NCBI GenBank assembly: GCA_031119195.1
Contig: JAVHYG010000002.1
Span: 3,892 to 32,508, forward strand
Length of the DNA stretch: 28,617 bases
From: Rickettsiella sp.
GTDB lineage: Bacteria > Pseudomonadota > Gammaproteobacteria > Diplorickettsiales > Diplorickettsiaceae
Reading direction: 5' to 3'
In this document: positions 19,960-28,617 of the stretch, piece after piece
How positions within the stretch are numbered: the stretch's first letter is position 1
How the letters are laid out: the number at the start of each line of letters is the position of its first letter
Made by a program: the position numbers and the translations under genes
The notes under the pieces: model-generated
What the model saw: only the letters and a program-made list of their open reading frames with translations
Told to the model about the DNA's origin: nothing
The model's database searches: none

Positions 19960-21681
19960 TTAAAACGATAAGTCTCTATCCTTAACAAAATAATTTTTTA
20001 GCTTTTCTAGCTTTTCTTTGGTTAAAGGCTTTGACCACACCTCGTTAATACCTGAAGCCAAACATTCCTGTTTGAATGATTCATTTATGTGTGCAGTTAA
20101 GGCAACAATAGGAATGGGTGACTTTTTGGTAAATCGTTCCCAATAACGATATAAGATTGCAAATTCATTACCCTTTATCTCTGGCAATTCAACGTCAGTA
20201 ATAATGACATCAAAAAAATGAGTTTTTGTTAATTTAAGCCCTTTAATGGCAGTTGTTGCTATCACGACATTATAACCTTCACTTTGAAGAAGATTTTCTC
20301 CAATTTTTAAAGCAATGGAATCATCTTCAATAAATAAAACTGATTTTCTTTTCTTAGATAAATTCAATTCATCCACATTTTTACATACAGCTTGCGTATC
20401 CTCTGCTACTGCTTCTTCTATAGCATATTTTTTATCTTTTTTAACAACAGATACGACTTCTAAGCTTTTCTTTTTTTCAGGATTATTTTCTTCAAGCGGC
20501 ATCAGTAATGAAAAACTAAAGGTCGTACCTTTTTCCAACTTACTATTAACGTGAATTTTTCCTCCCAATAAAGTAACAAATTTCTTAACAATATAAAGAC
20601 CCATGCCATAACCTGGACTAACTCCTGCATAAAAATGCTTTCCGTGATAAAATTGATCGAATATGTACGGAAGCTTTTCTGGTAAAATTCCCTGCCCCGT
20701 ATCAGCGACACTAAATTCAATATAAGCGTTATTAGCTTCAGATGTTGGTAAAGGTAATTCCTTAATTGATAGAGTAATTTTTCCTTTTTCAGTAAATTTA
20801 ATTGCGTTGGTAATCAAATTTAATAAAATTCTTTCGAGCTTAATTCGATCACAGATAACTCGTTTCGAAATACTTACGTCAATATCCCAATCAAACATTA
20901 ACCCTTTTAATTTAATAGCCGGTAAAAAAAGACCTTTCAGTGACTCGAAAAACTCTAACAATGAAAAGGAATTTTTTTGAAGATCCTCTTCATTGACTCG
21001 CTCTAAGGAAGCCACATCAAGTATACTATTAAGTAAAGATAGCAATTCTTTAGATGAGTGATAAATAAGATTTATATCTACGGCATCTTGGCCTTTTAAA
21101 TGCTTTTTAAGTAAATCAGCTAAACCAATAATTCCGGTAAGTGGGGTACGTATATCATGACTCATATTAGCAAGAAAAATTGTTTTAGCTTGGTTGGCTA
21201 TTTCCGCAGCAATTTTAGCTTTTGCCAATGCTCGCTCAGCTTTTTTTCTTTCCGTAATGTCTGTTGATATACCTAATACACCAATAATATTATTTTTTTT
21301 GTCATATAAAGGCACTCGACTTGATAAATAATAAAATGTTCTTCCTTCAGGATTAGTTATAGGGGGTTCTTCGTGATTTAATTTAGCGATTCCTGTTCTC
21401 ATAACCTCTAAATCATCCTTTTTAAAGCAAGCGCCTTGACCATCTTCCCAATGTGCGCGATTAGCCATTTCTTCATAGCCCATGCCTTTAAAATCCTCAA
21501 TTGATTTCAGACCCAGTAACTTAGCTGTATTTAAGTTACAACCTAGTCCAATACAATTTCTATCTAACCAATAAATATTATTAGGCAAAGCAGCTAAAAT
21601 ACTTTTATAATAAAAATGGACTTCTTCCATGCTAGAAAACTTTGGCATATCCATTATATTTTTCCCCAAAAATTTAGTCAT
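19960..21681 (-). CDS. Soluble hybrid sensor histidine kinase (PAS/PAC-HisKA-HATPase-REC)
   Basis: PAC end [12 protein letters not shown]; H-box [10 protein letters not shown]; N box [12 protein letters not shown]; G1 DTGQGI; G2 GYGMGL; receiver IEDD...TDVELP...ALTAH...SKP; no TM segment. Confidence 0.95.
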
Positions 21682-21838
21682 TGTGAAATACCTTAAAATT
21701 TACTACCGCTTGCTATAGAAAATGCAAAATTTTAAAATACCAGTGTGATTCTAGAATCTAGCTCCAAAGAAAAGCATAGCTTCCCTAAAGCAAGCTCCAC
21801 CTCTCCCTTTGAAAATCAACAATGCGGCAAGTAAGAAC

Positions 21839-21864
21839 TTGAGGTTGCAAATTTGCAACCTCAA
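21839..21864. terminator. Perfect 26-bp palindrome 17 nt past the NRPS stop (possible terminator or operator)
   Basis: TTGAGGTTGCAAA|TTTGCAACCTCAA. Confidence 0.6.
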
Positions 21865-21880
21865 ATACAATGGTTATAGT

Positions 21881-24800
21881 TTATCTTACTAAACTAATTT
21901 TTTCAGTTTTTCTATCCAAAAATTGATTTTTTAAATCAATTTCATCTAAACACTCACACACTATTTTTGCTAGTTTCGAAACATTTTCTACTTCAAATAT
22001 CGTATCATGCCCGCCTTCTACATCATGTATTTCCAAATATTTGCAGTATTTAGTCCAATGATTATCGGAAGAATTTATATCACGATAGACTGGCGACACT
22101 TCTTTAGCTTTAAAAAGCGTTAACGTTTGATCAGTAAACGGAAGTTTATAATTTGCATTTTGTTGTGCACGTTCCCACTGAAGTTCTAATAATTTATCAG
22201 CCGATTCGATTTTTTTATCTGAAAATTCTCTTTTCCACTTATCATATTGAGCTCTCATAATAATATCAAATAAATTCTTATTTTTTTTCAACTGAGCAGG
22301 ATAAGGCGCCCAACCATCAAATAAACCTATGAATGCTACTTCCTCGCTAAGACGTTTAAATTCTTGCGCCATTGCAATACTGGTTGTAGCACCTGCAGAA
22401 GCACCGCCTATTAAATAGGGTCCGTGAGGTTGAATAGCACGTATGGCGTGCACATACGCTTTTGCCATCTCCTCAACTGATTGAAAATGTAAGGCTAATG
22501 TTTCTATAGCTACATCCTGAATTCCATAAAGAGGTCGCGCACAATCCCATGTCTTTGCAAAAGCCAATTTAAGAAACCAAAATATTGCACCTCCTACGGG
22601 ATGAACCAAAAACAACGGCGTTTTATCTCCTGAATCATGAAGAGGAACAATACATTGTTTGAGAAATATACTTTTTCTCTTTTCAAAAAAGTTAAAAGGT
22701 GTACTTTCACATTTTATCTGTAATTGCGTTAAATAGTTAGCCAACTCTCTAATAGTGGAATAACGATATAAGGCCTTTAAATTTAGTTCTACTTTAAACT
22801 GACTTTTTATTTCTCCTAATAGTTGTAAAGCAAGTAGTGATTTTCCACCTAAATGAAAAAAATTATCTGAAATACTAATAGGCTGATTTATTCCTAATAC
22901 CTTAGCCCAAATAGCTTCCAATTTTATTTCCATTGGAGTGTTAGCACCCGTTATACTCTTTCTAAAAGAAGTTGCTTGCATCCCTAATGCTAACAAAGCT
23001 GTTCTATCAATTTTACCATTAGCAATTAAAGGAAAATGGGAAACAAAAGTGATAGTAGGTATTACAGATAATCTAGAAGTATTCTCTAAAAAACTTCGTA
23101 GCTCCGTTTTATTGAGTTGACTTCCTTCTTTTCGTATAACATAAGCTACTAATTTCTTAACGCCATTCGGTAATTGATGTACGAATACAGTAGATTTAGA
23201 AATTTGTGGATGTTCTTCACATGCGAGCGCTACTTCCGCTAAATTTACAAACGATCCATCAATTTTAACCTGATCATCGCAACGCCCTACATAGATGAAA
23301 TGTCCTTCAACTGTTTGATACCCATGATCCCCAGTGGGATACATGCGATCAAGGGGGTTATTACTATAAGGGTCTTGGATAATTTTTTCCTGAGTTAATT
23401 CAGGATGTTTCCAATAAGCTAATGCAACACCCGGACCACTCACCCAAATTTCTCCAATACATAAAGGAGGAAGTAAGCGTCCCCATCCATCTCGTATGTA
23501 AATTCTGGTATTGGCTACGGGTTTACCAATAGGACATTTTAAAGGCCATACAGGCATTGAGCTATCTAAAGTATAAGAAGTCACTACATGGGTTTCAGAG
23601 GGGCCATAATGATTAGTGAGTTTTATATGCTTATTTCTTTTAAAAAAAGCTAAGATTTCTGAATATAATTTTAGCTCTTCCCCAGCCACAATTATTTCAA
23701 GTAAATCCGGCCAACAATAATGTTGCTGTTGATTAGCGAATTCGCAAAAAATAGAAAGAAACGCGGTAGGCAAAAATAATATATTAATTTCATGTTGTGA
23801 AACATATTCGATCAGTAACGACGGTGTTAATTTGATATCATCTGGAATAAAATAAAGTGTGTGACCATTAAGTAAACTAAAAAATATTTCTTGTTGACAT
23901 ACATCAAAGCCGTAACTTGCAAATTGAGCCACTTTTAAGGTACGTCCAAGGTATTTTTTATTTTGCCATCTCACTAAATTAGTAATCGTTTCATGCGATT
24001 GTACCACTGCTTTTGGATTACCGGTGGTCCCGGAAGTGTAAACATGAAAAAGTGATTTTATATTTACACTTTTATTGTCAGCACCGTAATAAGGTCCATC
24101 AGTCTCTCCATTGACTCGTTTAAAACAAAACATCCGTGGATTTATTAATGAATTTCCTATTCTTTTTAATATTTTATCGATAAAAACTGTTTTTTCCTTA
24201 GGAAATTCATAGCCGATTTGGGCCTCTATCGTAGATTCAGTCAAAATCAAGCTAGGTTCACAATCTTCAAGAATATAATTGGTACGACGCTCAGAGTTTT
24301 TAATATCTAACATGACAATAACAGCTTTTGTTTTCACTATCGCTAATTGTCCAATTAACATTTTTAAATTACGGTCTACACAGATAGCAATAATATTTCC
24401 TGGACGTATTCTTTTTTTAAGTAAATACATACTTAAATAATTAGCACTATCATTAAGTTGTTTATAACTTAATTGTTTATCTTGATAAATACCTACTAAC
24501 TGATCTGGCGTCTTTTTAACTTGCTCTTCAAATAATTCAAGGATTGATTTAGGACTGCACTTATTTTCTGTTGCTCTCCAATCAGCAGCCATTAACTGAT
24601 ATTCATAAGAGCTTAGAAAATTCAAGTGATTAATAGGTTGATATGGCTTAGTGAGAATTTCCTGTAATACCGTTTGTATATGCCCTATTAATCGTTTAAT
24701 AGTTGTTTTATCAACACGATTATTATCGTAGTTGAATTTTAAACGTAATTTCTTATCAGGAATTGCTATTAATGTAAGTGGATAATGAACTGGATCAATA

Positions 24801-27800
24801 ATTTTTAAATCACCAAAGTCCATCCTTAATCCAGCACTAGTAGATTTAGGATAATTTTCGGTTACTACTAAGGTTTCAAATAAAGGAGAAGCAGAAAAAA
24901 TTCCACTCCACGTTTTAATATGCTCTAAAGGTGTATAAGCAAACTTGAGCATATCAAATATCTGGTCTTGTAATGCCCTGAAATATTGAGATACAGTCAT
25001 GTTATTCATGTGAACACGCAAAGGCAATGTATTAATCATTAAACCTAATGCCTTTTGAAAGTTTGGCGGCCTATTAGATACAGTAATTCCAAATATAACA
25101 TCTTCATTTCCAGCATGGCCGGCATAATAATGCAAAATTAAACCCCATACACCTTGGATAAAACTATTAAATGTTAGGTTCGCTAAATTACAGAAATCGT
25201 TTATTTGAGTTGTTAACTCCGTTGATACTTCAACCGTTTGACTTTGATGATCGGGTGATTTAAAAAAATCTTCCTTATTTAAAGGTTTTATAATGGGACA
25301 TTCTGTTGTTGATTGTATTTCTTTAAAGTAATCTTTCCAGAAATCACGAGCTTCTTTCAAATCACCCATAGATAACCATGTTATATAATTTTGATAAGAC
25401 ACAGGAATTGATAAAATCTCGTTAGCTTGCTCTAAAGACTGATAATATTGTCCCAGCTCTTGAAATAACAAAGATAATGACCACCCATCAAGTAAAAGAT
25501 GCGATACTGTAAGAACAATCTTATACTGACCGTTAGGTAACAAAATAGTATTTATACGTAATCCTTGTGGTTTATCCGGTCTAAAACCCAATTGTCTATC
25601 TGCCTGTAAAAATTCTTGTAATTCTTTATCTAAATCTTTTTCTGAAAAATTATCCCAATTATGATTCTTCCAAATAAGGGAAACGTCCTTATAAACATGT
25701 TGTAATGGTTCGGCTAAACCTTCCCATTCAAAAGCTGTGCGTAAAATCTCATGCCTTGCTACGAGATATTTAAATGCTTGGTGGAGTCTAGAAATTTCGA
25801 CGTGAGCATCGAGATCCCAAAGCAACTGTACAACATAGGATTCAGATTCAGGATTAACAAGATAATGAAACAGTAATCCTTTTTGCATAGGGCTTAATTG
25901 ATACGATTTTTGTATGGAAGTTGCACGGGACAATGAATTTTTATTAATTCCTAATTTTTTCATTTCATCTTTTTTGGATTGAGACAAATATTCTTCTAGA
26001 AATGCAAAATAATCCTTTAAAAATCTATTCATCGTTGTTTGATAAAAATGATTCTGGCTATAGTTACAATTCATATGCAGCTGTCCTTTTATCACTGCGG
26101 CTTCGATAACTATCAAGTGGGTACGTTCATTTTTTGGATGAGAAATTAAATTAAGACCTTTAAATTCAAAAGGACTATCTTTTGAAAATAATTGATCAAA
26201 TTGACCCCAGTAATTAAAACAAATTGCACTGCTGCCTATTAATTTTTTATCATAAAGATTCAGATACTTTTGTACGCCATAATCCAGCCCATTATTTGGA
26301 ATAGCGGCTAATTGCTCCGTCACTTGTTGAAGCAAACTATTTAAAGATGCTGGGCTTTTAATAGTAAACCGAAGAGGAAATAAACTTGTAAACCAACCCA
26401 CAGCACTCTCTAACTTCAAGGTAGGATCAATAGCTGATTCTCTACCATGTGTTTCTATATCTAAAATAATTTCTTTATTACCTGTACAACCAATAATTGA
26501 TTTAAGTAATATCGTAATTAACAATTCACGGGGACGAACTTCATTTTGTAACAATTTTTCAGTAAATTTTTTACTTAGAATTTGTGTTACATTACCGCTA
26601 TACCTTTCTGAATTGGCCCCCCTGTTATAATCACAGATTAGAGTGGGTGGAATAAAACCTTTATCATCTTTCTTCCAAAAATGACTAGAGTCAGTATCTA
26701 AAATTTTTTTAAATTTTTGTAAGGTACTTGACCATTTTCTAAAAGAACTCGCATGTTCAGAAAGAGAAAAACTCGGCAAAGAAAAATTTTTTAGTTTGTA
26801 AGCTGTTTCTAAATCTTGTAAACAAACTCGCCAAGAAATACCATCCACTACTAAATGATGAAGCGCAATTAATAAATAAGAATTTCTCGATGTAATGAAA
26901 TTTAAGTTTTTTAAAATGACAGCACCCATTACTGGCCCTGTTTCTATGTTAAAATTACTTTGTAACCGAATACTCCAATCCGTAACAATGGTTTGTAATT
27001 CACTTTCATTGGACCAACTTATATGATGAATTTGGGTTACGTCATTATTGTGAAATTCGTCCGGCTGCACATAGGTTTGCTGCCATCCTGATTCAGCTTG
27101 TTTAAATCGAAGTGAAAAAGTAGGGTACGAACTAGTCCATTTTTCCAAAATTTTTAATAAGCACTCAATATCAATGTCTGACTTCAATTCAATTAAACAA
27201 ACTTGACTAAATTGATTAGGCTTTTTTAATTTTTTATCAAAAAACCAGTGCTGTATCGGCGTCAATGGAAACGGCATCAACAATTCTTCACCTTCTTCAT
27301 AGAAAGAAATTTTCTCTAACTTAGTCGCTAATTCTGCAATGGTCGGTGTTCTAAAAAAGTCTTTAATTGATAAGTAATATCCACGTTGCTGCAATTCCGC
27401 TGAGATTTGCATCGCTAAAATGGAATCTCCTCCTAAAGCAACAAAACTCTCATGTATACCAACTTGTTCTCTATGCAATACTCGACACCAAAGGTTGGCT
27501 AGTAAAATTTGTTCCGAATTTTCAGGAGATATTTGCGCAGCTGCTGTTACAGGCAACATTAAATAGTCTTTTTTAATCAGTGCCTTTCTATCAAATTTAT
27601 CATGTCGAGTCCTGGGAAAATCTAAATCCTTCAAATCATAAAAAATATTGGGAACTTCATAATGCGGAAGTGTTCTCTTTAAAAAACATTGCAATCCTTC
27701 TACTGTTAAAGGGTCATTAATTGACGCTAACCCCTCCACTTTTTTTATATAAGCTACTATTTGCTTATGTTCACTGTCACCTATATGTTTAACTGCAACA

Positions 27801-28617
27801 GCAGCTTTTTGAATATAAGGGTGATTCTCAAGGGTCGCTTCAATACCTGCCATATTTATTCGTAAACCCTTTACTTTTACGAGGCTGTCAATGCGATCTA
27901 CATATTCGAAACTAAGTTTGTCATACTCATTAACCAAAAAGCGCACCAAATCACCTGTGGCATAGATATATTCTTCTGGAATAAAAGGGTTAGGGATAAA
28001 TTTTTCATCAGTCAGTTGTTTTTTATTTTCATAACCTCCACCTAGGCATATTCCTCCAATAAAAAGCTGACCCTCTTGACCTATACCCACAAGTTGTAAA
28101 TTTTCATCTAAGATATATGTTTTCACATTAGGTAAAGGTAAACCTATATCACTATGTAACCCAAAACTTCCAGGGGGGTGATAGGATACAAGCGTGTAGA
28201 TTGTTGTTTCAGTAGGCCCATAAGCATTCACTAGATGAAAATCTTTCCATAGTATTAAAACTTCTTCAGTGCATGGTTCACCCGCTGCAATCACATAACG
28301 TAAAACGGGTAAATTTGCAGGGGGTGTCAGTTGAAGCACTGAGGGCGGAAACCCTGCTATGGTTACACCATATTTCCGTAATGTATTAGCAAGGATCGGA
28401 CCAGGAGAACGCTCGCCCGGTGTGGGAATACGCAATTGCGCGCCATGTATCAAAGGAGCAAATATCTCCCAATAAGCAACATCAAAAGTAGATTCAGCAT
28501 AATTTAGAAATACATCTTTGGTATTTATCTCTAATTTTTTGGCTAAAGAAAAAACTAAATTAGTAACACCTTTATGTAACACTTTAACTAATTTGGATTT
28601 ACCCGTAGTTCCGGAAG
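21881..28617 (-). CDS. Non-ribosomal peptide synthetase, 5'-partial: A-T-E-C-A-T-TE
   Basis: Frame is open to the window edge (SGTTGKSK, A3 motif). T1 LGGDSI (27422-27433); E domain HHLVVDGISW (26840-26860), ETHGRE, VGWFTSLFP, FNYWGQ; C domain SHLLLDGWS (25484-25504); A2 YTSGTTGNPK, YGPSE, NGKIDR; T2 LGGKSL (22838-22849); TE GASAG (22391-22405) with LFD and GGH. Confidence 0.97.
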   Translation of the reverse strand, partial: SGTTGKSKLVKVLHKGVTNLVFSLAKKLEINTKDVFLNYAESTFDVAYWEIFAPLIHGAQLRIPTPGERSPGPILANTLRKYGVTIAGFPPSVLQLTPPANLPVLRYVIAAGEPCTEEVLILWKDFHLVNAYGPTETTIYTLVSYHPPGSFGLHSDIGLPLPNVKTYILDENLQLVGIGQEGQLFIGGICLGGGYENKKQLTDEKFIPNPFIPEEYIYATGDLVRFLVNEYDKLSFEYVDRIDSLVKVKGLRINMAGIEATLENHPYIQKAAVAVKHIGDSEHKQIVAYIKKVEGLASINDPLTVEGLQCFLKRTLPHYEVPNIFYDLKDLDFPRTRHDKFDRKALIKKDYLMLPVTAAAQISPENSEQILLANLWCRVLHREQVGIHESFVALGGDSILAMQISAELQQRGYYLSIKDFFRTPTIAELATKLEKISFYEEGEELLMPFPLTPIQHWFFDKKLKKPNQFSQVCLIELKSDIDIECLLKILEKWTSSYPTFSLRFKQAESGWQQTYVQPDEFHNNDVTQIHHISWSNESELQTIVTDWSIRLQSNFNIETGPVMGAVILKNLNFITSRNSYLLIALHHLVVDGISWRVCLQDLETAYKLKNFSLPSFSLSEHASSFRKWSSTLQKFKKILDTDSSHFWKKDDKGFIPPTLICDYNRGANSERYSGNVTQILSKKFTEKLLQNEVRPRELLITILLKSIIGCTGNKEIILDIETHGRESAIDPTLKLESAVGWFTSLFPLRFTIKSPASLNSLLQQVTEQLAAIPNNGLDYGVQKYLNLYDKKLIGSSAICFNYWGQFDQLFSKDSPFEFKGLNLISHPKNERTHLIVIEAAVIKGQLHMNCNYSQNHFYQTTMNRFLKDYFAFLEEYLSQSKKDEMKKLGINKNSLSRATSIQKSYQLSPMQKGLLFHYLVNPESESYVVQLLWDLDAHVEISRLHQAFKYLVARHEILRTAFEWEGLAEPLQHVYKDVSLIWKNHNWDNFSEKDLDKELQEFLQADRQLGFRPDKPQGLRINTILLPNGQYKIVLTVSHLLLDGWSLSLLFQELGQYYQSLEQANEILSIPVSYQNYITWLSMGDLKEARDFWKDYFKEIQSTTECPIIKPLNKEDFFKSPDHQSQTVEVSTELTTQINDFCNLANLTFNSFIQGVWGLILHYYAGHAGNEDVIFGITVSNRPPNFQKALGLMINTLPLRVHMNNMTVSQYFRALQDQIFDMLKFAYTPLEHIKTWSGIFSASPLFETLVVTENYPKSTSAGLRMDFGDLKIIDPVHYPLTLIAIPDKKLRLKFNYDNNRVDKTTIKRLIGHIQTVLQEILTKPYQPINHLNFLSSYEYQLMAADWRATENKCSPKSILELFEEQVKKTPDQLVGIYQDKQLSYKQLNDSANYLSMYLLKKRIRPGNIIAICVDRNLKMLIGQLAIVKTKAVIVMLDIKNSERRTNYILEDCEPSLILTESTIEAQIGYEFPKEKTVFIDKILKRIGNSLINPRMFCFKRVNGETDGPYYGADNKSVNIKSLFHVYTSGTTGNPKAVVQSHETITNLVRWQNKKYLGRTLKVAQFASYGFDVCQQEIFFSLLNGHTLYFIPDDIKLTPSLLIEYVSQHEINILFLPTAFLSIFCEFANQQQHYCWPDLLEIIVAGEELKLYSEILAFFKRNKHIKLTNHYGPSETHVVTSYTLDSSMPVWPLKCPIGKPVANTRIYIRDGWGRLLPPLCIGEIWVSGPGVALAYWKHPELTQEKIIQDPYSNNPLDRMYPTGDHGYQTVEGHFIYVGRCDDQVKIDGSFVNLAEVALACEEHPQISKSTVFVHQLPNGVKKLVAYVIRKEGSQLNKTELRSFLENTSRLSVIPTITFVSHFPLIANGKIDRTALLALGMQATSFRKSITGANTPMEIKLEAIWAKVLGINQPISISDNFFHLGGKSLLALQLLGEIKSQFKVELNLKALYRYSTIRELANYLTQLQIKCESTPFNFFEKRKSIFLKQCIVPLHDSGDKTPLFLVHPVGGAIFWFLKLAFAKTWDCARPLYGIQDVAIETLALHFQSVEEMAKAYVHAIRAIQPHGPYLIGGASAGATTSIAMAQEFKRLSEEVAFIGLFDGWAPYPAQLKKNKNLFDIIMRAQYDKWKREFSDKKIESADKLLELQWERAQQNANYKLPFTDQTLTLFKAKEVSPVYRDINSSDNHWTKYCKYLEIHDVEGGHDTIFEVENVSKLAKIVCECLDEIDLKNQFLDRKTEKISLVR

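What the first reader, a model, noticed from the sequence alone, without database searches (positions are those of the whole stretch)
21881..28617. NRPS predicted to end in D-(Phe-like)-L-Pro in a Legionellales-type host-associated bacterium
Seen: one polypeptide with A-T-E-C-A-T-TE, all phosphopantetheine Ser and catalytic His/Ser residues present. Reading the ten pocket positions by hand against GrsA-PheA, A2 gives D-V-Q-F-I-A-H-V-V-K. Established: this is the Pro code type, and the local FDVCQQEIF resembles the Pro-activating GrsB1/TycB1 domains. A1 gives D-V-W-G-I-A-A-I-Y-K, closest to the Phe code DAWTIAAICK but with G278 and Y331, so its substrate may be unusual. Established: GGDS-type T plus E gives a D-residue, and D-Phe-L-Pro on GrsA/GrsB1 cyclises to a diketopiperazine. 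Inference: this gene is a fused version of that pair with its own TE. It would release cyclo(D-Xaa-L-Pro) or a longer peptide ending D-Xaa-Pro, as a possible host-modulating or signalling metabolite embedded in housekeeping DNA.
Basis: partly seen in the sequence, partly recalled or inferred. Interest (0 to 1): 0.88.

Follow-up and report, generated by a model that had tools for sequence, protein, structure and literature searches.

The report
Formyl-dipeptide synthetase beside a sensor kinase
A Rickettsiella-like leaf-litter bacterium carries an apparently intact two-module peptide synthetase that most likely makes a small N-formyl-D-(Phe-like)-L-proline dipeptide, not a cyclic diketopiperazine, and relatives of this enzyme almost always sit next to a soluble sensor kinase, which suggests an untested "make a molecule and sense it" signalling unit.

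Summary
Window 21881-28615 (minus strand) is one open frame of 2244 residues reading (partial A)-T-E-C-A-T-TE, with all catalytic Ser and His residues present. The two hand-read specificity codes were reproduced exactly.

The frame is cut by the contig end. Its start lies on a 2.7-kb contig of the same genome and adds an N-terminal formyltransferase domain and a half condensation domain. About 66 residues are unassembled. Full-length homologues (2914-3030 aa) show the gene has exactly two modules.

- A2 is a proline domain: 9 of 10 code positions match TycB1 and GrsB1.
- A1 is a derived Phe-type pocket of unknown substrate.
- The E domain and a D-specific C domain predict a D-residue at position 1.
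- N-formylation blocks the amine needed for diketopiperazine closure, so the likely product is linear N-formyl-D-Xaa-L-Pro.

In 19 Legionellales-type loci with otherwise different neighbours, such formyl-NRPS genes adjoin a cytoplasmic PAS hybrid histidine kinase, as here (19960-21681). No characterised orthologue was found in the literature searched. Legionella one-module relatives have only been predicted (Tobias 2016). This scan has already reported the same synthetase-kinase pairing on other DNA. It is a new variant of a known kind, and the proposed function is inference.

The parts
21881..28617 (-). NRPS gene, C-terminal 2244 codons plus stop. It runs off the contig and window end. The first 663 codons (F, half-C, A1 N-terminus) are on contig C159 (locus L002: 2-1990, minus strand). 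About 66 codons are unassembled.
   Evidence: Homologue P0003 (2980 aa) aligns to the C159 piece at residues 7-670 and to the window piece from residue 737. Condensation domains occur nowhere else in the genome.
27566..28615 (-). A1 adenylation domain from core motif A3 (SGTTGKSK) onward. All ten code residues are inside the window. Code DVWGIAAIYK, a derived Phe-type pocket.
   Evidence: Asp235-equivalent at 28481-28483, Lys517-equivalent at 27596-27598.
27311..27520 (-). T1 carrier domain with GGDS motif. Ser398 at 27422-27424.
   Evidence: The GGDS motif is kept in 11 of 12 family members (one has GCDS).
25961..27280 (-). Epimerisation domain (HHLVVDG). Second His587 at 26855-26857.
   Evidence: The best solved relatives are all E domains: PvdL, GrsA 5isw, BacC, TycA 2xhg. 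The motif is conserved in the family.
24590..25912 (-). Condensation domain of the D-donor (DCL) type. It has the LSPMQKGLLFH motif at its N-terminus and SHLLLDG with His1039 at 25499-25501.
   Evidence: The best solved relatives are C domains that by my knowledge follow an E domain or take a D-donor (McyB-C1 1.5e-77, PvdL, BacC, TycB1, SrfA-C at 4e-45 or better). The next hit, the TycC C domain (2jgp, an L-donor type by my knowledge), is at 2.6e-17.
22982..24532 (-). A2 adenylation domain. Code DVQFIAHVVK, proline type.
   Evidence: Asp at 23903-23905, Lys at 23012-23014.
22721..22930 (-). T2 carrier domain (GGKS). Ser1926 at 22838-22840.
21962..22618 (-). Thioesterase domain. Ser2073 in GASAG at 22397-22399, His2203 at 22007-22009.
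21837..21866 (-). 13-bp-stem hairpin 15 nt after the NRPS stop codon, with a T-poor tail. It could be a terminator or attenuator between the NRPS and the kinase.
   Evidence: This is a consensus scan only; one such site was found where 1.8 are expected by chance.
19960..21681 (-). Co-directional cytoplasmic hybrid histidine kinase of 573 aa: PAS_4 (30-146), HisKA (166-227), HATPase_c (278-393), receiver (448-560). No transmembrane segment by inspection.
   Evidence: Formyl-NRPS genes adjoin a kinase of this kind in 19 distinct Legionellales-type loci, counting this one.

Best explanation
The window holds the larger part of a single two-module NRPS with the full order F - half-C - A1 - T1 - E - C(DCL) - A2 - T2 - TE, about 2970 residues, split over two contigs by an assembly gap.

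Inferred mechanism:
1. A1 loads a hydrophobic or aromatic, Phe-like amino acid on T1.
2. The FMT/ArnA-like F domain formylates its amine using N10-formyl-tetrahydrofolate.
3. The E domain epimerises the residue.
4. The D-specific C domain joins it to L-Pro held on T2.
5. The TE hydrolyses the thioester and releases linear N-formyl-D-Xaa-L-Pro.

The diketopiperazine is at most a shunt product of unformylated intermediate.

The gene is functionally coupled to the soluble PAS hybrid histidine kinase just downstream. Most likely this is a make-and-sense (autoinducer-like) pair. Less specifically, the kinase may control the synthetase.

Shown here: domain order, catalytic residues, the Pro-type A2, the E and DCL types, F-domain conservation, and the recurrent kinase neighbour. 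Inferred: the chemistry, the identity of residue 1, the release mode, and any signalling role.
For: Gene structure
- The F domain (Formyl_trans_N 1e-19, Formyl_trans_C 3e-07) and the A-domain N-terminus are on C159. They are colinear with the 2980-aa homologue, leaving a 66-residue gap.
- This is the only NRPS in the genome. GC content and codon usage of the two pieces agree.
- Eleven full-length homologues of 2914-3030 aa share the architecture.

F domain
- F-domain residues N100, H102 and D138 are invariant in 12 sequences.
- The model (pLDDT 81) superposes on whole Met-tRNA formyltransferase (TM 0.81). Its second half matches C-A didomain structures.

Other domains
- A2 matches TycB1 and GrsB1.
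- The E and DCL assignments rest.
- Two Sfp-type PPTases are present in the genome.

Kinase link
- The kinase is adjacent in the window, in all 6 contexts fetched by protein identity, and in 13 genome loci. All carry gammaproteobacterial or Legionella-type labels, and their other neighbours differ.
- None was found in about 57 loci from other phyla.
- One database protein (P0225) fuses F-A-T-R with PAS-PAS-HATPase.
- A codes differ between family members (Phe-Pro, Phe-Ser-like, Val-Gly-like and others), as expected for diversifying signals.
Against: - No product, expression or kinase-ligand data exist.
- 66 residues of A1 are unassembled, so intactness of the whole gene is not proven.
- The A1 code (G278, Y331, V236) matches no code of known specificity in my sample.
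- The NRPS-adjacent kinases are not one exclusive clade. Paralogues from this genome nest among them, and label clustering is not significant (6 changes against a shuffled mean of 7.8).
- The sister NRPS clade (Rickettsiella) uses a different kinase paralogue in divergent orientation. The pairing has therefore been re-made or swapped, and strict co-evolution is not shown.
- In this window a hairpin and 200 bp separate the two genes.
- No response regulator or HPt partner lies nearby.
- The fusion protein comes from a single assembly record.
Confidence: 0.55

Rival explanations
1. First reader's reading. The enzyme behaves like a fused GrsA/GrsB1 or TycA/TycB1 pair and releases cyclo(D-Xaa-L-Pro), a diketopiperazine, as its real product.
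For: D-Phe-L-Pro thioesters on GrsB1 and TycB1 cyclise spontaneously (established knowledge). The A1-T-E / DCL-A(Pro)-T logic is the same.
Against: - The N-terminal F domain has catalytic Asn, His and Asp conserved in all 12 family members. A formylated amine cannot attack the thioester.
- A dedicated TE is present.
- The same genome has a separate cyclodipeptide synthase with its own kinase, so diketopiperazine production would not require this NRPS.
Confidence: 0.12
2. The N-formyl dipeptide has another role, such as antimicrobial, host-directed or metal-binding. The neighbouring kinase is then only a cluster-situated regulator responding to an unrelated cue, or an unrelated neighbour.
For: - Adjacent kinases are polyphyletic within a larger PAS-kinase family.
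- The kinase partner differs between sister NRPS clades.
- A hairpin separates the two genes here.
- Biosynthetic clusters commonly carry regulators (general knowledge).
Against: - Adjacency recurs in 19 distinct loci with unrelated surroundings. This genome has only about 8 kinase-like loci in 1.56 Mb, so the chance of a flanking kinase is about 1% per locus (rough inference).
- Genes are tightly spaced or overlapping in several loci.
- A fusion protein exists.
- A parallel CDPS-kinase pair exists.
Confidence: 0.25
3. The gene is a decaying pseudogene or an assembly or binning chimera, and the C159 fragment belongs to another organism.
For: The genome is a 171-contig MAG. The join is not assembled, with no terminal overlap and the missing 66 residues on no contig.
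Against: - 2244 + 663 codons carry no stop.
- All catalytic motifs are intact.
- The gene is colinear with a same-genus homologue whose downstream genes (kinase, dnaE, ftsQAZ) are syntenic with the window.
- It is the single NRPS in the bin, and composition is matching.
Confidence: 0.05

Closest known systems
TycA/TycB1 and GrsA/GrsB1 (tyrocidine and gramicidin S initiation: D-Phe then L-Pro)
   Same: Same logic: A(Phe-type)-T(GGDS)-E followed by a D-donor C domain and a Pro-activating A domain. The A2 pocket segment is most similar to TycB1 and GrsB1, and 9 of 10 code residues are identical. The A1 segment is most similar to TycA and GrsA.
   Different: Here there is one polypeptide, an N-terminal formyltransferase domain, and a terminal TE directly after module 2. 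A1 has V236, G278 and Y331. N-formylation should prevent the diketopiperazine side reaction for which those pairs are known.
LgrA initiation module (F-A-T) of linear gramicidin synthetase, PDB 5ES5 / 6MFZ
   Same: An N-terminal formyltransferase domain is fused to the first A-T of an NRPS. The expected chemistry is formylation of the aminoacyl thioester before condensation.
   Different: The F domain here is a full FMT/ArnA-type two-lobed enzyme (ArnA E 2e-16, against LgrA F 2e-07). It is separated from A1 by about 260 residues that fold like the C-terminal half of a condensation domain. LgrA has neither (my knowledge of LgrA; the weaker match is).
Legionella 'cluster C, G, I' monomodular formyl-NRPSs (Tobias et al. 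2016, PeerJ 4:e2720, PMC5126622)
   Same: Same F - half-C - A - T starter. Examples are L. drancourtii F-A-T-R and L. bononiensis F-A-T-TE. They fall in the same proteobacterial clade and also have a kinase neighbour. The paper predicts N-formylated amino-acid products and suggests signalling roles for NRPS clusters B-D, which are linked to a regulator gene.
   Different: Those enzymes have one module. This one adds E, a D-specific C domain and a Pro module, so a D,L-dipeptide is expected. The paper's text does not mention a kinase (0 occurrences). No products are characterised in either case.
Synthase plus sensor-kinase signalling cassettes: RpfF/RpfC (DSF), LqsA/LqsS (Legionella LAI-1), CqsA/CqsS
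   Same: A small-molecule synthase gene lies next to a (hybrid) histidine kinase gene.
   Different: Those kinases are membrane sensors and the signals are fatty-acid or hydroxyketone derived (my knowledge). Here the kinase is soluble with a PAS sensor and the signal would be a non-ribosomal formyl peptide. The resemblance is by gene arrangement only and was not tested.

Membership tests
Modular type I NRPS | A, T (with phosphopantetheine Ser), C and TE domains in collinear order | tested here: met
   Pfam domains; catalytic residues.
Modular type I NRPS | A PPTase is available to make the holo-enzyme | tested here: met
   Two Sfp-type PPTase ORFs (AASDHPPT_N + ACPS) on contigs C13 and C60. 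Activity on this enzyme was not tested.
Formyltransferase-initiated NRPS (LgrA-like) | N-terminal formyltransferase fold with catalytic Asn, His and Asp | tested here: met
   Pfam and NCBIfam hits. N100, H102 and D138 are invariant in 12 sequences. The fold matches FMT and ArnA.
Formyltransferase-initiated NRPS (LgrA-like) | F domain fused directly to the A domain, as in LgrA | tested here: not met
   An FMT C-terminal lobe plus a half condensation domain (residues about 318-580) lie in between.
Formyltransferase-initiated NRPS (LgrA-like) | Formyl transfer from N10-formyl-THF to the T-bound amino acid | not testable with these tools
   Needs an enzyme assay.
D-Phe-L-Pro diketopiperazine-forming pair (GrsA/GrsB1, TycA/TycB1) | Pro-specific second A domain | tested here: met
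   Code DVQFIAHVVK. TycB1 and GrsB1 are the top hits.
D-Phe-L-Pro diketopiperazine-forming pair (GrsA/GrsB1, TycA/TycB1) | Phe code DAWTIAAICK in the first A domain | tested here: inconclusive
   7 of 10 positions are identical (V236, G278, Y331 differ). It is the nearest code but 3 mismatches away. More distant family members do carry the exact Phe code.
D-Phe-L-Pro diketopiperazine-forming pair (GrsA/GrsB1, TycA/TycB1) | E domain plus D-donor C domain | tested here: met
D-Phe-L-Pro diketopiperazine-forming pair (GrsA/GrsB1, TycA/TycB1) | Free N-terminal amine on the dipeptidyl thioester, needed for cyclisation | tested here: not met
   An apparently functional F domain heads the protein. This rests on sequence only.
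Legionella monomodular formyl-NRPS clusters (Tobias 2016) | A single module F-A-T ending in R or TE | tested here: not met
   Two modules with E and C between them. The starter part is homologous.
Autoinducer synthase / sensor kinase pair | Conserved adjacency of synthase and kinase across genomes | tested here: met
   19 distinct loci, counting the window.
Autoinducer synthase / sensor kinase pair | Kinase and synthase co-inherited (congruent trees) | tested here: not met
   The kinase tree mixes adjacent kinases with paralogues. Sister NRPS clades use different kinase paralogues.
Autoinducer synthase / sensor kinase pair | The kinase senses the synthase's product | not testable with these tools
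   Needs binding and phosphorylation assays.

The most novel reading that the evidence does not exclude
Legionellales and other intracellular bacteria may use a so far undescribed class of chemical signals: N-formylated amino acids, amino aldehydes and D,L-dipeptides made by formyl-NRPSs. Each would be read by a cognate soluble PAS hybrid kinase encoded next to, or even fused to, the synthetase. A-domain specificity would diversify between lineages like pherotypes. Cyclodipeptide-synthase-kinase pairs in the same genomes would form a parallel channel.
Probability: 0.3. Interest if true: 0.85.

Novelty: new variant of a known kind. Interest (0 to 1): 0.6.

Why it matters
The best-known small-molecule signalling system in Legionellales is Lqs (my knowledge). 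A second, peptide-based family of signals with dedicated cytoplasmic sensors would change how regulation is viewed in these host-associated bacteria, which have reduced genomes. This genome is only 1.56 Mb, yet it keeps a roughly 9-kb synthetase.

The prediction is concrete. It names a product class (an N-formylated D,L-dipeptide ending in Pro), a candidate receptor, and culturable Legionella species that carry one-module versions. It can therefore be tested directly by expression, mass spectrometry and kinase assays.

For this finding itself, the main correction is chemical. The N-terminal formyltransferase domain, invisible in the window, makes a linear N-formyl dipeptide much more likely than the proposed diketopiperazine.

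Tried and rejected
- **Joining the contigs.** There is no terminal overlap between C43 and C159. The missing 66 residues are on no other contig of the bin. Read laying was not used, because a single reference cannot span the join.
- **One orthologous kinase clade.** The tree does not support this. I therefore dropped a claim of strict synthase-kinase co-evolution.
- **PPTase and hydrolase queries.** tblastn with the PPTase and the alpha/beta-hydrolase from related loci found nothing in this genome. A Pfam-family search then found two Sfp-type PPTases. The hydrolase remains not found with this query.
- **Unknown neighbour proteins** (588, 507, 598 and 610 aa) next to kinases in this and related genomes are not homologous to each other.
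- **Literature.** Five full-text searches found no characterised orthologue and no paper that links formyl-NRPSs to histidine kinases. Only Tobias 2016 is relevant.
- **A1 substrate.** No code in 553 sampled A domains comes closer than the Phe code, so the substrate stays open.
- **Iterative or cyclising TE.** I considered this and set it aside on chemical reasoning. A formylated N-terminus leaves no nucleophile for head-to-tail closure.

Full report
**What is in the window.** The only long frame at 21881-28617 is on the minus strand. It is 2244 codons without a stop and open at its 5' end. The window is G000:C43:3892-32508 and the contig ends exactly at the window end, so an assembly break cuts the gene.

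Pfam gives two Condensation-type domains, two AMP-binding, two PP-binding and one Thioesterase domain. The order is (A1 from core motif A3)-T1-E-C-A2-T2-TE. The key residues are present and were mapped to window coordinates:
- T1 Ser398 in GGDS
- E-domain HHLVVDG
- C-domain SHLLLDG
- T2 Ser1926
- TE Ser2073 in GASAG
- TE His2203

**The missing start.** tblastn of the protein against the whole 171-contig genome found one further NRPS-like piece, at the edge of the 2.7-kb contig C159. Its single ORF (663 aa, ATG start, open at the 3' end) has four parts:
- Formyl_trans_N (E 1e-19)
- Formyl_trans_C (E 3e-07)
- a weak match to the second half of the Condensation profile
- the first 79 positions of AMP-binding

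A protein search with the window fragment returned 11 full-length proteins of 2914-3030 aa carrying exactly these families plus those of the window. The best of them (2980 aa, 71% identical) aligns to the C159 piece at residues 7-670 and to the window piece from residue 737. The two contigs are thus two parts of one gene, with about 66 residues (about 200 bp) unassembled.

Several checks agree with this. Condensation domains occur nowhere else in the genome. GC content and codon usage of the two pieces match. There is no terminal overlap, and the missing stretch is on no other contig. The gene has two modules and no more.

**Domain types.**
- *A2.* The pocket segment hits the proline-activating TycB1 (E 3e-22) and GrsB1 (E 1e-20). 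The next group is at 1e-9, and a stand-alone prolyl-carrier-protein ligase follows. The alignment shows the same residues at 9 of 10 code positions (D-V-Q-x-I-A-H-V-V-K).
- *A1.* The segment is nearest to TycA and GrsA, but only marginally (5e-11 against 2e-10). Its code DVWGIAAIYK differs from the Phe code at three positions. Among 553 A domains from homologues and related loci, nothing outside its own clade is closer than the Phe code. More distant family members carry the exact Phe codes DAWTIAAICK and DAWTIAAVCK. A1 is therefore a derived Phe-type pocket whose substrate cannot be named.
- *E domain.* Its best solved relatives are all E domains: PvdL, GrsA, BacC and TycA.
- *C domain.* It matches C domains that by my knowledge follow an E domain or accept a D-donor: McyB-C1, PvdL, BacC, TycB1 and SrfA-C, at E 1.5e-77 to 4e-45. 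The next hit, the TycC C domain (2jgp, an L-donor type by my knowledge), scores 2.6e-17. It also has the LSPMQKGLLFH N-terminal motif, which I know as typical of D-donor C domains.

A D-residue at position 1 and L-Pro at position 2 are well supported by sequence.

**The formyltransferase domain changes the chemistry.** In an alignment of 12 family members, Asn100, His102 and Asp138 are invariant. These are the formyltransferase catalytic triad by comparison with ArnA and FMT. By sequence the domain is closer to ArnA and Met-tRNA formyltransferase (E 2e-16) than to the F domain of LgrA (2e-07).

An AlphaFold model of the 663-residue piece (mean pLDDT 81) superposes on whole FMT (TM 0.81 to the target) over its first 310 residues. 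The remainder matches C-A didomain structures such as McyB-C1A1 and Txo1. The starter is thus F (two lobes) - half C domain - A. I saw no HHxxxDG motif in this piece by inspection.

If the domain is active, the amine of residue 1 is formylated while bound to T1. A formylated dipeptidyl thioester cannot close to a diketopiperazine or cyclise head to tail. TE hydrolysis to linear N-formyl-D-Xaa-L-Pro is then the simplest outcome. This step is inference from established NRPS chemistry and was not shown here. Two Sfp-type PPTases exist in the genome.

**The neighbour.** Two hundred bases downstream and co-directional lies a 573-aa soluble hybrid kinase, PAS_4-HisKA-HATPase_c-receiver. The other genes in the window are housekeeping (dnaE, ftsQAZ, lpxC).

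I fetched the contexts of six family members by protein identity. All six have a kinase of the same architecture beside the NRPS, although the remaining neighbours differ: dnaE/ftsQAZ, T4SS genes, ankyrin proteins, toxin-antitoxin genes. In five related loci overall (three of these six, plus two genome loci) an alpha/beta-hydrolase lies in between. One locus also carries a PPTase and a LuxR-type regulator.

A scan of species-representative genomes with the F/half-C/A N-terminus found 407 relatives. I domain-scanned the best 80 loci with my own queries. This showed a kinase beside the NRPS in 13 of them, all labelled Legionella, Rickettsiella, Gammaproteobacteria or 'proteobacterium'. They include one-module versions:
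- L. drancourtii, F-A-T-R
- L. bononiensis, F-A-T-TE

None of about 57 loci from cyanobacteria, Acidobacteriota, Chloroflexota and other phyla has a kinase neighbour. This genome has only about eight kinase-like loci. A flanking kinase by chance is therefore roughly a 1% event per locus (rough inference).

One database protein of 2346 aa fuses F-A-T-R with PAS-PAS-HATPase_c. It comes from a single assembly record.

**Limits of the kinase argument.** A tree of adjacent kinases together with this genome's other kinases does not make the adjacent ones an exclusive clade. In the NRPS tree the window's clade is sister to the Rickettsiella clade. Yet the Rickettsiella NRPS-adjacent kinases are divergently oriented and group with two other kinases of this genome (contigs C75 and C104, both with HPt domains), not with the window's kinase. 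Partners have therefore been exchanged or recruited more than once. The association is one of gene classes, not of one co-evolving pair.

A 13-bp-stem hairpin follows the NRPS stop codon here.

Between the two congeneric genomes, FtsZ and FtsA are 95% identical, DnaE 84%, the NRPS 71% and the kinase 61%. Both genes evolve fast but stay open.

**Diversity in the family.** A-domain codes differ between bimodular family members. They include Phe/Pro, Phe/Pro-like, Phe/Ser-like, Phe/Gly-like, Val-like/Gly-like and others. The one-module Legionella forms carry a Val code (R-terminated) or a Gln code (TE-terminated) (amino-acid assignments are from my knowledge of published codes). T1 keeps GGDS and E keeps HHxxxDG throughout (one member has GCDS).

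**Organism.** The genome is a 1.56-Mb MAG, 92% complete. Its best DNA holder is a leaf-litter metagenome run. It shares a family with a genome whose locus is identical to Rickettsiella sp. Oerr (Legionellales, Coxiellaceae), and a genus with the 'Pseudomonadota bacterium ADI_H2L1' MAG. Only 5 of 31 genomes of the family, in 4 of 9 genera, have the gene with this query. It is an accessory gene with a patchy distribution.

**Literature.** Tobias et al. 2016 (PMC5126622) described Legionella clusters C, G and I bioinformatically as monomodular NRPSs predicted to give N-formylated amino acids. They suggested signalling roles for NRPS clusters B-D, which are linked to a regulator gene. The text does not mention a kinase. 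I found no characterised product or orthologue. Subscription journals are not covered by that library.

**Earlier notes of this scan.** Other windows have already yielded the same formyl-NRPS plus PAS-kinase pairing, in two-module and one-module forms, and a CDPS-kinase operon. These are AI notes, not independent evidence. I re-derived the pairing here. I took two leads from them, to look for fusions and for a CDPS, and both checked out.

**Verdict.** The reading is partly supported: D-(Phe-like)-L-Pro yes, diketopiperazine or a longer peptide no. The best explanation is a two-module formyl-dipeptide synthetase functionally tied to a soluble sensor kinase. Function is untested. It is a new variant of a known kind, of moderate to good interest.

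Noticed in passing
Same genome, contig C31 (L099:3688-4485 +, then kinase at C31:23483-25006): A 266-aa ORF, interrupted by a 10-N run in the assembly, is a cyclodipeptide synthase homologue (PDB 5ocd E 1e-13; Pfam CDPS only E 0.028). A PAS hybrid kinase follows 14 nt later. A homologous CDPS (5ocd E 2e-54) plus kinase plus receiver lies just upstream of the formyl-NRPS in locus L005. The genome thus has two 'small peptide synthase + PAS kinase' pairs, and a real diketopiperazine enzyme exists apart from the NRPS.
   Followed up: partly
Protein P0225 (2346 aa, one Logan assembly record): A natural fusion of F - half-C - A - T - reductase with PAS-PAS-HATPase_c in one polypeptide. It could be a true fusion or a lost stop codon or assembly error.
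   Followed up: partly
L007:11476-12594, L008:16854-17885, L009:16779-17804, L012:18968-20026, L013:18780-19814: A conserved alpha/beta-hydrolase of 340-370 aa (weak S33 aminopeptidase / Abhydrolase_1 hits) lies between the NRPS and the kinase in five related loci. It was not found in this genome with these queries.
   Followed up: partly
Same genome, contig C13 (L103:544-8487): A second small biosynthetic cluster: TauD-family dioxygenase, ATP-grasp, an A-T-reductase protein (940 aa), a methyltransferase, an aldo-keto reductase and an Sfp-type PPTase.
   Followed up: no
Loci L017, L021, L036, L043, L050, L055, L062, L076, L080 and this genome's C159: Many MAG contigs carrying formyl-NRPS genes break at nearly the same place, about 590-720 residues into the gene, in the N-terminal part of the first A domain. 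This suggests a systematic assembly problem there. The cause was not examined.
   Followed up: no
Same genome, contigs C75 (L100:2923-4935 -) and C104 (L101:2117-3904 +): Two further PAS-HisKA-HATPase-receiver-HPt kinases group with the Rickettsiella NRPS-adjacent kinases in the tree. Their neighbours are unannotatable proteins of 588 aa and more than 507 aa with no Pfam match and no mutual similarity.
   Followed up: partly
window 21837-21866 (minus strand): A perfect 13-bp-stem hairpin 15 nt after the NRPS stop codon with a T-poor tail. It may be a terminator or attenuator before the kinase gene.
   Followed up: no
L081 (Rickettsiaceae chromosome), L087, L017, L021, L022 (Caedibacter, Paracaedibacteraceae, Holosporales): Alphaproteobacterial intracellular bacteria carry homologous formyl-NRPS starters, with three or more modules where the gene is complete. 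This is compatible with gene exchange among amoeba- or host-associated lineages. No kinase neighbour was visible in the flanks held.
   Followed up: no
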